From Escherichia coli (GTDB lineage Bacteria > Pseudomonadota > Gammaproteobacteria > Enterobacterales > Enterobacteriaceae): 64,000 nucleotides of DNA. Below are positions 8,001-11,000 of this stretch, piece after piece. Each line of letters opens with the position of its first letter. Position 1 is the first letter of the stretch. Location: the NCBI RefSeq assembly GCF_051903065.1, contig NZ_CP178438.1, one strand, 5' to 3'. A program made the position numbers.

Positions 8001-11000
8001 TGCACTAACGGCACCCGCACCAGTATAATCCCCACTGTTATCACTCGGGCTAATACCAGCGGCAGCATCGTTAGAGTTATCAAGCGGGGTACCGATTGCC
8101 AGGTTGCCATTACCATGAGCATCTTCATTACCATCGAAACGAATTGCGGCGGACTTAAAGGTTTCCGGGCATTGAGTCAGATCGATAGAAAAAGCCGTCG
8201 GGGCAGCCACATCATCGACGCCACTAAAGGCTGTACGGTTTACTTTGCCTAAGTCAACGACCTGATCTTTAGTTTCAGGTGTGACTTCGCAAGTACTGTC
8301 AATAATTTCACCACGGAAATGGACTGTTCCATCAGCCGCCTGTAGGTGACCTGCCATAAACACAGAAGTTAACGCTAATGCTCCTACAATCATATTTGGT
8401 TTCATAAATATAACTCCATTAATTTGATATTATTCCTGTGTATTATCCATTTATTAAATTTGGATAAACCCGATCGGTATTTGATCAGAAGCCAAATAGT
8501 ACTACCAATATACTTTGGCGCAAGTGGTTTTTATTTTATACATTTAGATAAATTAAATTGGGTGTTAAGCAAAACTAAATTTATATCGTTATGTGATTGC
8601 TTAAAAGAAGAGGGAATAATAAATGGATATAAATATTATTTTTATGATGAGGTGATTTTTTAATTATATCACACATCTCAAAGCAGACAATTTTTTCATA
8701 TTTACATAATCCACAACTATGAATTTGCGTAGAAAACAGTCTTATTTTTAGTAAACCACACATTCAAATTATATTTTTTGCCTATATTTGTGGAAAGACT
8801 ATATATTTACAGTGATAATTTATTATCACACATTGTTACATAGTTAAATAAAATTACATATTGATGATTGTTTTACAAGCGATTCTTGAATGAACAAAAC
8901 GTGCTATTCATTACAAAGTACGTCAATTATGGCAATTGTTTGTCAATGATTCGAGATATTTAATTACTACTACGGTTAAAACAAGTGTTCAACGGTGCCC
9001 CAAATAATAGCTGAAGTTAATTATATGGAATGAGGTTAGATTATTAATGCTGGTAAGTAAAAGGGCCGCCAAAAGGCAGCCCTTCTGTGGGATGACAAAA
9101 TAGTCCTAAAATAAACTACGCTACAAGCCATATTTTTTGGCTCTACTTTAAAAATAAATGACAAAATAGATCTAAAATAAATTTTAAGCTTGCCATAATC
9201 TCGCACCCAATAAGTGACAAAATAGATCTAAAATGATATCAGGACATGGTTAAACATCTGTTTTAAATCAACTTTTATTTGTTTAACTATTTAACCGACC
9301 CACAACCGAAGTTTCTCATAAACAAAATCGATAGGTAAACGCTCTTGCTCTAAACGAGTTGACCTATCCCCGGAATTAGTACCAATCCCGTGATGAGATT
9401 TTCCAGCTTATGCTGCCTGCTTTGCATACTCAACAGGCGACATGTAATTCAACGAACTGTGCGGACGAACATGATTGTAATGCTCGCGCCATAAATCTAT
9501 TTCGTATCTGGCCTCGTCCATCGTTCTAAACCAGTGTTGGTTCAGGCATTCGTTTCTGAACTTGCCATTCAAACTTTCAACAAATGCGTTTTGTGTTGGT
9601 TTACCTGGCTGAATAAAACCCAGAGTAACGCCGCTTTCTTTGCTCCAGAAGAACATCGCCTTACTTGTAAATTCAGTGCCATTGTCACAGATCACCTTAT
9701 TTGGTTTGCCGCGTTGCTCAATCAGCAAACTCAAGAATCTGGCGACTTGCCTGCCACTGATGGAAACCAAAACCAATTGGCCTACCATTTCACGCGAATA
9801 ATCATCCACCACATTTAAAACCCTAAAGCGCCTGCCATTGCTGAGTTGATCCGATACAAAGTCCATAGACCAACGTTGATTCACAGCTGTTGGCACTTCC
9901 ATAGGCTGTCGTGGCCGAGTCAGCTTTTTGCGTTTTTTCGTACGCACCTGCAAACCTTCTTCGGTATAAAGGCGATAGGTATGCTTACGGTTTTTAACCC
10001 AACCTTCGCCCCGAAGCAGACTATGCAACATCAGATAGCCATAACGCGGATATTGGGTTGCCAATGCTTTCAACCGCTGTCGTATGCTGTTATCTGCATT
10101 CGTTTTGGGCTGATACCGCAATGCCGTTCGGCTTAATCCCGCCAACTTGCAAGCCACCCGTTCACTCAGGCGAAAAGCTTCTATCAAATGCTGAGCAACA
10201 GGTTTCCTTGCCGCTGGCGTCACCACTTTTTTGACAGTACATCCTTCATTGCTTCGACTTCCAGCATCTTGTCGGCCAGCATTTTCTTAAGCTTGTTGTT
10301 CTCTGCCTCAAGCTCCTTCAATCGCTTGGCTTCGTTCACTTCTAGGCCTGCGTACTTACTGCGCCAGTTGTAGAAGGTCCCGACGGATATCGCCATCTCA
10401 CGGCATAAGTCCTCGACCTTCGAGCCTGCTTCATGCTGCTTGATGGCTTTGATGATTTGTTCTTCGGTGTAACGTTTTTTCATTTTGAGATCTCCATTGG
10501 TTCCATTTTATTGGAAATCTCATCAATGTCATGGTCTTAAATTGGGGGGATAGGTCACTCACCTGAGCATGAGTTACAGGGAGCAGAGTTTCATTTGTGG
10601 CTTAAAAACACTCCCACCTGCATAACGGCACCCGAATTTACCACCACGACCACTGGTTGATCACCACCCGTTGTGTTTTCACGGAACCACCATGTTCAGC
10701 AATCATCCAGTTACTTGATTGCCTGCTATGAGCGAAAAGCAGAGATTCAGCACCTCAACACAATCCGCATGCGAATGACCGCTTTTACCGCAAAACCGGA
10801 CATGAAGCCCGGTTTATTTAAAACGAAATTATCGGTCTATAGGGCTAATTGTCCCTGATGAATGTTGACCGATGACATGTGTATATATTTGAGTTGTCTT
10901 CAAATCCGTATGCCCTAACAGCTCTTGAACTGTACGAATGTCTGTTCCCGCTTTTAAAAGCTGCGTTGCGAAAGAGTGCCTGAATGTGTGTGCGGTAACG

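What the first reader, a model, noticed from the sequence alone, without database searches (positions are those of the whole stretch)
9346..10569. IS3-family element between the Tn7-like left end and intI lacks an obvious target duplication
The IS has an intact orfA/orfB pair with the 7-nt overlap expected for programmed frameshifting and imperfect terminal repeats sharing TGACCTATCCCC, but I could not find matching 3-4 bp direct repeats at its flanks (gagt / ctca). This may reflect imprecise boundary calls, or an IS-mediated adjacent deletion or recombination that removed sequence between the left end and intI.
Basis: seen in the sequence. Interest (0 to 1): 0.3.

Follow-up and report, generated by a model that had tools for sequence, protein, structure and literature searches.

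The report
IS3-family insertion lacking a target duplication
An ordinary, intact IS3-family insertion sequence sits just inside the left end of a Tn7-like resistance transposon without its usual 4-bp target duplication and with 6 extra bases at one end, which points to an irregular insertion event and not to a loss of neighbouring DNA.

Summary
The IS is window 9360-10557: 1198 bp, ends TGACC...GGTCA, genes on the minus strand. Its flanks are GAGT on the left and CTCA on the right, with no direct repeat. This is not a boundary error. Five identical copies elsewhere all carry perfect 4-bp duplications at exactly these ends. One of them, inside ISVsa5, was checked against intact ISVsa5 copies and matched 240 of 240 bases.

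IS-free relatives of the same Tn7-like left end show the two flanks adjoining, so no sequence is missing in that comparison. The common allele reads ...AAACGAGT|TGAGC.... The window therefore has the IS plus 6 extra bases (CTCACC, 10558-10563) outside the orfA-proximal end. A second IS-free allele, ...AAAC-ACC-TGAGC..., keeps part of those extra bases and looks like an imprecise excision footprint.

My best reading (confidence about 0.45) is that a whole IS circle was integrated, including a 6-bp circle-junction spacer. Only one end would have been transferred, and the host would have resolved the joint. A normal insertion followed by a junction micro-deletion is not excluded.

The IS predates the spread of this intI/dfrA1 transposon, which has its own clean 5-bp duplication. 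This is an ordinary element with a minor mechanistic oddity, so interest is low.

The parts
9360..10557 (-). IS3-family insertion sequence, 1198 bp, ends 5'-TGACC...GGTCA-3'. The window-left end is IRR (orfB-distal) and the window-right end is IRL (upstream of orfA).
   Evidence: The fused transposase matches NF033516 (IS3 family) at 298.5 bits against a cut-off of 160. Pfam finds HTH_Tnp_1, HTH_21, rve and rve_3.
9360..9377 (.). Terminal inverted repeat IRR (window-left end).
   Evidence: pair I2: 18 nt, 89% complementary to 10540-10557.
10540..10557 (.). Terminal inverted repeat IRL (window-right end).
   Evidence: pair I2.
10220..10483 (-). orfA, 87 aa, helix-turn-helix domain.
   Evidence: Pfam PF01527.
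9408..10226 (-). orfB, DDE/rve catalytic domain. It is expressed as a 358-aa OrfAB fusion.
   Evidence: RefSeq annotates a 'programmed frameshift' on identical copies.
10226..10232 (-). A AAA AAG slippery heptamer for the -1 programmed frameshift, lying in the 7-nt orfA/orfB overlap.
   Evidence: Read directly from the sequence and from the translation across the site.
10558..10563 (+). Six extra bases, CTCACC, abutting IRL. They are absent from the common IS-free allele. They are inferred to be a retained circle-junction spacer derived from donor flank.
   Evidence: Alignments. The origin as a spacer is inference.
9356..9359 (+). Left target flank, GAGT.
10564..10567 (+). Right target flank, TGAG. 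It directly follows GAGT in the IS-free K allele.
9086..9234 (+). Left end of the Tn7-like transposon: terminal TGTGGGATG plus three TnsB-type 20-bp repeats. The IS lies 274 bp inside the end, beyond these repeats.
   Evidence: One search found 7 repeat matches in the window against 0.03 expected by chance.
9086..28695 (.). Whole Tn7-like transposon at attTn7 downstream of glmS. It carries tnsABCDE, an SXT-ICE-type integron integrase, a dfrA1 cassette and an inserted Tn3-family transposon. It is flanked by its own 5-bp duplication, CCTTC (9081-9085 and 28696-28700).

Best explanation
**What it is.** This is a normal, apparently active member of the IS3 family. It normally makes 4-bp target duplications. 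From memory its ends look like the IS407 subgroup. This copy entered the backbone of a Tn7-like transposon through an irregular insertion.

**Ancestral site (shown by comparison).** The ancestral target most likely read ...CTAAACGAGT|TGAGCATG..., which I call allele K.

**Proposed insertion (inferred).**
- The IS arrived as the usual copy-out circle, with its two ends joined by a 6-bp spacer, CTCACC, taken from the DNA that flanked IRL at the donor site.
- Instead of both ends being cleaved and joined 4 bp apart, only the IRR end was cleaved and joined to the target.
- The resulting four-way branched joint was sealed and then resolved by host replication or junction-resolving enzymes.
- As a result the entire 1204-bp circle (IS plus spacer) was integrated with no duplication. 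This gives exactly ...AAACGAGT[TGACC...GGTCA]CTCACC TGAGC....

**Later events.**
- Inferred: in one lineage (allele V, ...CTAAAC-ACC-TGAGC...) the IS was lost by imprecise excision, which removed GAGT + IS + CTC and left ACC as a footprint.
- Shown: the IS-bearing transposon subsequently transposed as a unit into attTn7 of several hosts.
For: **This IS normally makes a 4-bp duplication.**
- Five independent, 100% identical copies have perfect 4-bp duplications at the same ends. The five duplicated tetramers differ: GTGT, CTGC, AAGG, CGGG and TATT.
- For the copy inside ISVsa5, removing the IS plus one duplicate restores a sequence 240/240 identical to intact ISVsa5 copies; more than 1800 plasmid records hold at least 80% of it.

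**The flanks adjoin in IS-free relatives.**
- Allele K occurs in six Klebsiella plasmid records and in one chromosomal-type Logan contig. It is 98-99.6% identical across the flanks. It differs from the window at the junction only by lacking the IS plus CTCACC.
- So the insertion is 1198 + 6 bp with no duplication, and the extra bases lie on the IRL side only.

**The known chemistry allows it.**
- IS3-family circle junctions carry a short spacer of host DNA taken from next to the recipient end. In IS2 that end is IRL.
- Spacer length normally about equals the duplication length, but it varies (PMC3299598; PMC7780238).
- Single-end transfer that creates a Holliday-type junction processed by RecG, and presumably RuvC, is the published model for IS911 targeted insertion (PMC7986276).

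**Allele V supports the order of events.**
- V retains ACC from the extra bases.
- V shares the left-end G at 9091 with the window, where K has T. This fits V descending from an IS-bearing ancestor.

**The junctions are real and ancestral.** They are identical in all 15 fetched loci of the element (at least 12 assemblies), in different chromosomal contexts, and in one metagenome contig.
Against: - No donor copy flanked by CTCA...CTCA-CC was found, and no circle junction of this IS has been observed, so the spacer origin is pure inference.
- A 6-bp spacer is longer than the roughly 4 bp expected for an IS that makes 4-bp duplications.
- The published IS911 single-end pathway was described for insertion next to an IS end in the target. 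Here the target has only a 4-of-5 match to the IS tip (TGAGC versus TGACC), and the spacing does not fit that pathway.
- Allele K could itself be an excision product of the IS-bearing form, through the TGA...TGA microhomology. In that case the true pre-insertion sequence is unknown.
- Only three alleles from a rare element family are available.
- The inverted match between CTCA and the adjoining TGAG is unexplained by this model and could be chance.
Confidence: 0.45

Rival explanations
1. Normal insertion, then secondary damage. The pre-insertion site read ...AAACGAGT(X)CTCACCTGAGC.... The IS inserted with a normal duplication of CTCA. A small IS-adjacent deletion then removed the left duplicate, plus any X. 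Alleles K and V are both later, independent excision or deletion products.
For: Both K and V can be derived from the window allele by deletions that span the IS. K uses 3-nt TGA microhomology. V has end points at the base of the hairpin that the terminal repeats could form, extended by GAG/CTC pairing in the flanks. V shows that part of CTCACC exists in an IS-free element. CTCA next to IRL has the right length for a duplication of this IS.
Against: This needs about four events (insertion, adjacent deletion, two independent excisions) where the favoured reading needs two. No allele containing X, or an intact CTCACC without the IS, was found in the plasmid, E. coli, species-representative genome or metagenome searches. 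From general knowledge, adjacent deletions are not typical of copy-out/paste-in IS elements. K occurs in several contexts and carries its own derived SNP, which fits an independent older lineage.
Confidence: 0.25
2. Two-ended insertion of an IS mis-cleaved at IRL. The IS was cut 6 bp outside IRL at the donor, or at an odd circle junction. It was then inserted together with those 6 bp by two strand transfers at the same phosphodiester position (zero stagger).
For: It accounts for the same sequence facts as the best explanation: 6 extra bases on one side, no duplication and contiguous flanks.
Against: The 3' end of CTCACC is not the conserved CA-3' that IS3-family transposases cleave after. All five other copies show a 4-bp stagger, so a zero stagger would be a second, independent irregularity in the same event.
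Confidence: 0.1
3. Homologous recombination between two copies of the IS inserted at different positions, in sister transposons or elsewhere. The surviving copy would then carry the left flank of one insertion and the right flank of the other.
For: This is a classic cause of IS copies without matching duplications. Some host genomes do carry a second identical copy.
Against: The two flanks are adjacent in IS-free relatives, to within 6 bp. Two independent insertions would therefore have had to hit the same few bases, and one parent would have needed a CTCACC allele that has not been seen. Neither parental form, with GAGT/GAGT or CTCA/CTCA duplications, was found.
Confidence: 0.08
4. Artefact: mis-assembly or wrongly called IS ends.
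For: None beyond the general possibility.
Against: The junctions are identical in all 15 fetched loci of the element (at least 12 assemblies from different laboratories and platforms) and in one metagenome contig. The ends are fixed by five copies with clean duplications and by diverged relatives.
Confidence: 0.01

Closest known systems
IS3 family insertion sequences (IS407 subgroup, from memory of ISfinder descriptions)
   Same: About 1.2 kb long. orfA and orfB are fused by a -1 frameshift on A AAA AAG. The transposase has HTH and DDE (rve) domains. The ends are TG...CA, beginning TGACC. Five independent copies have 4-bp target duplications.
   Different: RefSeq labels it only 'IS3 family transposase', and no ISfinder name could be assigned here. 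Subgroup placement was not tested against reference sequences. The nearest full-length relatives in the plasmid collection are only 73-77% identical, in Alteromonas and Legionella. A truncated relative 94% identical occurs on Enterobacter and Klebsiella plasmids.
IS911 targeted (single-end) insertion with host processing of a branched or Holliday-type intermediate (Loot, Turlan, Rousseau and Chandler, as summarised in PMC7986276)
   Same: One IS end is transferred and the host resolves the junction. The product does not have the regular two-ended signature. This is the proposed route to a duplication-free, spacer-retaining product.
   Different: The IS911 events occur next to an IS911 end present in the target. 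Here the target has no convincing IS end, only TGAGC versus TGACC.
Circle-junction spacers of copy-out/paste-in IS elements (IS2, IS911, IS256, ISCth4)
   Same: These are short stretches of donor flank that lie between the abutted ends. Their length can vary and depends on flank sequence (PMC3299598; PMC7780238). The 6 extra bases sit where such a spacer would sit, next to IRL.
   Different: Spacers are normally discarded at integration. Natural retention of a 6-bp spacer in an established genomic copy is not something I could find documented.
Nearly precise excision of IS elements and transposons (slippage or hairpin removal promoted by terminal inverted repeats; general knowledge)
   Same: Allele V equals the window allele minus (GAGT + IS + CTC). 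Allele K equals the window allele minus (IS + CTCACC), between TGA repeats.
   Different: The direction of change, excision versus ancestral state, is inferred from three alleles and one SNP only.

Membership tests
IS3 family | Two consecutive ORFs (orfA, orfB) fused by a -1 programmed frameshift on an A-rich slippery heptamer. | tested here: met
   orfA is 10483-10220 and orfB is 10226-9408. A AAA AAG lies at 10232-10226. The predicted fusion is 358 aa. RefSeq annotates a 'programmed frameshift' on identical copies.
IS3 family | DDE (rve) transposase with N-terminal helix-turn-helix, matching the family profile above its cut-off. | tested here: met
   NF033516 transpos_IS3 scores 298.5 bits (cut-off 160) over residues 8-353. 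Pfam finds HTH_Tnp_1, HTH_21, rve and rve_3.
IS3 family | Imperfect terminal inverted repeats ending 5'-TG...CA-3'. | tested here: met
   The ends are TGACCTATCCCC... and ...GGGGATAGGTCA, 18 nt at 89%.
IS3 family | Short (3-5 bp) direct target duplication on insertion. | tested here: met
   For the IS as an element, five of five independent copies have perfect 4-bp duplications, and one was verified against the intact target. For this particular copy the feature is NOT met: the flanks are GAGT and CTCA.
IS3 family | Copy-out/paste-in transposition through a figure-of-eight and a circle with abutted ends. | not testable with these tools
   This needs PCR or sequencing of circle junctions. No junction sequence was available.
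IS407 subgroup of IS3 | About 1.2 kb, 4-bp duplications, TGACC termini, and transposase clustering with IS407 (criteria recalled from memory). | tested here: inconclusive
   Length, duplication size and termini fit. No reference IS407 sequence was available for comparison.
Tn7-like transposon (the host element) | tnsABCDE genes, multiple TnsB-type repeats at both ends, TGT...ACA termini, a 5-bp target duplication, and insertion downstream of glmS. | tested here: met
   TnsA-E are annotated in near-identical E. coli copies. There are three left-end and four right-end repeats. The termini are TGTGGG and CCCACA, with CCTTC duplicated on both sides. glmS lies at 28720-30549.

The most novel reading that the evidence does not exclude
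This locus could be a natural fossil of a non-canonical IS3-family integration. An entire IS circle, including an over-long 6-bp junction spacer, would have been inserted by single-end strand transfer and host resolution of a Holliday-type joint. That would leave no target duplication. A sister allele would then preserve the footprint of a later imprecise excision. If so, the single-end pathway known from IS911 plasmid assays also operates in nature on targets that lack an IS end, and retained spacers could be used to trace donor sites.
Probability: 0.35. Interest if true: 0.4.

Novelty: new member of a known kind. Interest (0 to 1): 0.22.

Why it matters
**Practical use.**
- The exact ends of this unnamed IS are now fixed, along with its normal 4-bp duplication.
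- The IS junction pair (GAGT|IS|CTCACC) is a stable lineage marker. It is present in every copy seen of the Tn7-like transposon that carries the integron and dfrA1.
- That transposon lies at attTn7 in several E. coli lineages and in Proteus mirabilis.
- No cargo appears to have been lost at this position.

**Mechanistic interest.** The interest is modest. If the spacer-retention reading is right, this is a natural example of an aberrant copy-out/paste-in integration. It also cautions that a missing duplication does not by itself imply an adjacent deletion.

Tried and rejected
**Searches for more alleles or a donor copy.**
- Species-representative genomes returned nothing for the empty-site pattern with a 0-20 nt gap, and nothing for the IS right-end 20-mer.
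- The metagenome scan with the right-flank anchor found one contig, which carries the same IS junction.
- The viral-contig scan with a left-end anchor found nothing.
- Exact-protein look-ups failed for two versions of the fused transposase and for a 101-aa ORF beside the K allele: none is on record.
- The second IS copies in three E. coli genomes (USDA-ARS-USMARC-50748, DAM, 88COLEC) could not be located with the tools available.
- A related Tn7-like element in CP096258 shares the left end only up to window 9275, so it says nothing about the IS site.

**Literature on the element's name.**
- Tn6230 is a different subfamily, with other end repeats and sil/cop cargo.
- Tn6450 and Tn6765 are true Tn7 derivatives carrying intI2.
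- No paper describing this element or its IS was found.
- The original IS911 targeted-insertion papers are not held in the library.

**Sequence readings considered and set aside as possible chance.**
- The terminal repeat can be extended into the flanks as GAG(T)/CTC.
- The extra bases form CTCA-CC-TGAG, an inverted match to the adjoining target.
- GGTGA resembles the IS tip GGTCA.
- The IRL flank of one other copy (L007) shares AGGTG with this one.
- A related IS fragment in a Plesiomonas plasmid has a GAG flank.
- The insertion site lies in the loop of a weak hairpin, -6.3 kcal/mol, which is not compelling.

**RNA search.** Rfam found nothing meaningful in 8900-12200.

Full report
**1. What is there**

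The window is an E. coli chromosome segment. It is 99.98-100% identical to strain 23CRST027 over window 8014-49153, apart from a stretch of resistance genes that the window lacks.

A Tn7-like transposon occupies 9086-28695, at attTn7 downstream of glmS.
- Its termini are TGTGGG and CCCACA.
- It has three TnsB-type 20-bp repeats at the left end (9093-9234) and four at the right end (28608-28688). That is 7 matches against 0.03 expected by chance.
- It encodes tnsABCDE.
- It has a clean 5-bp target duplication, CCTTC, at 9081-9085 and 28696-28700.

The IS lies 274 bp inside the left end, between the TnsB repeats and an integron integrase gene (10829-11788, minus strand).

**2. The IS and its exact ends**

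- The element is 9360-10557, 1198 bp, with ends TGACCTATCCCC... and ...GGGGATAGGTCA (18 nt, 89% inverted repeat).
- On the minus strand it encodes orfA (10483-10220) and orfB (10226-9408). These overlap by 7 nt across an A AAA AAG heptamer, which predicts a 358-aa OrfAB fusion.
- The fusion matches the NCBIfam IS3 profile at 298.5 bits (cut-off 160). It carries HTH_Tnp_1, HTH_21 and rve/rve_3 domains.
- Relatives 77% and 75% identical, in Alteromonas and Legionella plasmids, align exactly to 9360-10557.
- The window-right end is IRL (upstream of orfA) and the window-left end is IRR.

**3. How this IS normally inserts**

I found five independent copies, each 1198/1198 identical. They lie in:
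- the E. coli ANT chromosome,
- an ISVsa5 element in E. coli 88COLEC,
- a metagenome scaffold,
- a plasmid-like record,
- a fimbrial usher gene.

Each is flanked by a perfect 4-bp duplication at exactly these ends. In IS orientation the duplications are GTGT, CTGC, AAGG, CGGG and TATT. For the ISVsa5 copy, removing the IS plus one duplicate gives a sequence 240/240 identical to intact ISVsa5 copies; more than 1800 plasmid records hold at least 80% of it. The normal product is therefore IS + 4 bp.

**4. The anomaly**

In the window the flanks are ...CTCTAAACGAGT | IS | CTCACCTGAGCATG....

The same junctions occur in every copy of this transposon I could retrieve. That is 15 fetched loci from at least 12 assemblies: E. 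coli with different attTn7 surroundings, Proteus mirabilis H110 and other hosts. One metagenome contig also has them.

So the anomaly is real. It arose before the transposon spread, and it does not prevent the transposon from moving.

**5. The site without the IS**

The same left end occurs without the IS in elements that carry a tyrS-LuxR-EamA-AraC module instead of the integron. Two alleles exist.

| Allele | Sequence at the site | Where found | Relation to the window |
|---|---|---|---|
| W (window) | ...CTCTAAACGAGT[IS]CTCACCTGAGCATG... | all copies of the integron-bearing element | reference |
| K | ...CTCTAAACGAGTTGAGCATG... | six Klebsiella plasmid records and one Logan contig at another attTn7-like site | W minus (IS + CTCACC) |
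| V | ...CTCTAAACACCTGAGCATG... | one K. variicola IncU plasmid | W minus (GAGT + IS + CTC) |

Outside the junction the three alleles differ at only about three positions in some 450 bp. One is position 9091, where W and V have G and K has T.

Three points follow.
- The two flanks of the IS are neighbours in IS-free relatives, so no sizeable sequence is missing.
- Relative to K, the window has the IS plus six extra bases, CTCACC (10558-10563), on the IRL side.
- V contains ACC from those extra bases. Its G at 9091 also links it to the IS-bearing lineage.

**6. Interpretation**

No pre-insertion sequence can turn the window allele into a regular insertion product, because it has no duplication in any register. 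At least one irregular step is therefore needed.

The most economical history has two events. K is ancestral. The IS then entered together with six bases and made no duplication. V later lost the IS by imprecise excision.

Established IS3-family chemistry offers a route.
- The circle intermediate has its ends separated by a short spacer of donor flank. This spacer is taken from beside the recipient end (IRL in IS2), and its length is variable (PMC3299598; PMC7780238).
- Suppose only the IRR end of a circle with spacer CTCACC is cleaved and joined to the target between GAGT and TGAG. Suppose the resulting four-way joint is then sealed and resolved by the host.
- The whole 1204-bp circle is then integrated as GAGT[TGACC...GGTCA]CTCACC-TGAG, which is exactly what is seen.
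- A Holliday-type intermediate processed by RecG, and presumably RuvC, is the published model for IS911 targeted insertion (PMC7986276).

All of these steps are inferred. An over-long spacer might itself explain why the regular two-ended reaction failed.

**7. Rivals**

- **Normal insertion plus micro-deletion.** The IS inserted with a CTCA duplication into an unseen allele...GAGT(X)CTCACC.... A micro-deletion then removed the left duplicate, and K and V are both secondary excisions. It needs about four events and an allele that no search recovered.
- **Mis-cleavage.** The IS was cut 6 bp outside IRL and inserted with zero stagger. This needs two irregularities at once, and the cut would be at a site that does not end in CA.
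- **Recombination between two IS copies.** This needs two insertions within 6 bp of each other and unseen parental forms.
- **Artefact.** Excluded by the identical junctions across independent assemblies.

**8. Known or new**

The element is an ordinary IS3-family IS. RefSeq annotates it generically. The ISfinder name is unknown, and IS407-like features are suggested from memory only.

I found no description of this transposon, or of its IS junction, in the searchable literature. The anomaly is a small mechanistic curiosity, not a new kind of system.

**9. Limits**

- Only three alleles of the site exist in the data I could reach.
- Neither the donor copy nor a circle junction was found.
- ISfinder and the primary IS911 papers were unavailable.

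Noticed in passing
window 10618-10750 (also L014 about 5060-5171; L033, L035, L036, L039 and L040 about 3858-3983): A conserved segment of about 126-135 bp starts just after a shared TTCGCTCA and ends ...GTT(A/T)TGCA. It sits at the boundary of two unrelated cargo modules: the integron, and a tyrS-LuxR-EamA-AraC module. It recurs at 75-98% identity in at least six different backbones: the Tn7-like left end, upstream of traF in IncC/SXT-type elements, and next to a RecD2-like helicase, umuDC, TerB and ParB. It may hold an 18-22 codon ORF on the minus strand. There is no Rfam hit and no covariation. It looks like a module-exchange or recombination site of unknown mechanism.
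   Followed up: partly
window 10829-11788 (minus strand) and the cassettes at 12074-14390: The 319-aa integron integrase is 100% identical to the one found next to traF/traH/traG in SXT/R391-type or IncC-type elements, and in other Tn7-like elements with different cassettes. It is probably the IntI9 type, but it was not compared with the reference sequence. The cassettes here are dfrA1 followed by two trypsin-like serine protease genes, which is unusual integron cargo.
   Followed up: partly
window 14515-19464: A Tn3-family transposon carrying TEM-1 is inserted just after the protease cassettes. It has a clean 5-bp duplication, TTTTA (14510-14514 and 19465-19469). It is absent from most other copies of the Tn7-like element. 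This is a normal insertion signature, in contrast with the IS.
   Followed up: yes
window 9081-9085 and 28696-28700: The Tn7-like transposon itself has a perfect 5-bp duplication, CCTTC, at attTn7. It is found at glmS-linked sites with different neighbours in different hosts (lpfA2 fimbrial operon, pstS, others). So it has transposed since acquiring the IS.
   Followed up: yes
public record NZ_OL790812.1 (locus L001): This 4.09-Mb record is labelled 'Proteus mirabilis strain H110 plasmid unnamed' in the plasmid collection. At that size it is evidently a chromosome filed as a plasmid. It carries the same Tn7-like element at 99.96% identity, with the same IS junctions.
   Followed up: no
L043 (CP096258.1), locus 921-1112: Another Tn7-like element with the same integrase shares the left end at 100% identity only up to window position 9275. 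It then carries roughly 12 kb of different cargo (a beta-lactamase, a phage-type integrase, umuDC). So the left-end backbone tolerates cargo junctions at more than one position.
   Followed up: partly
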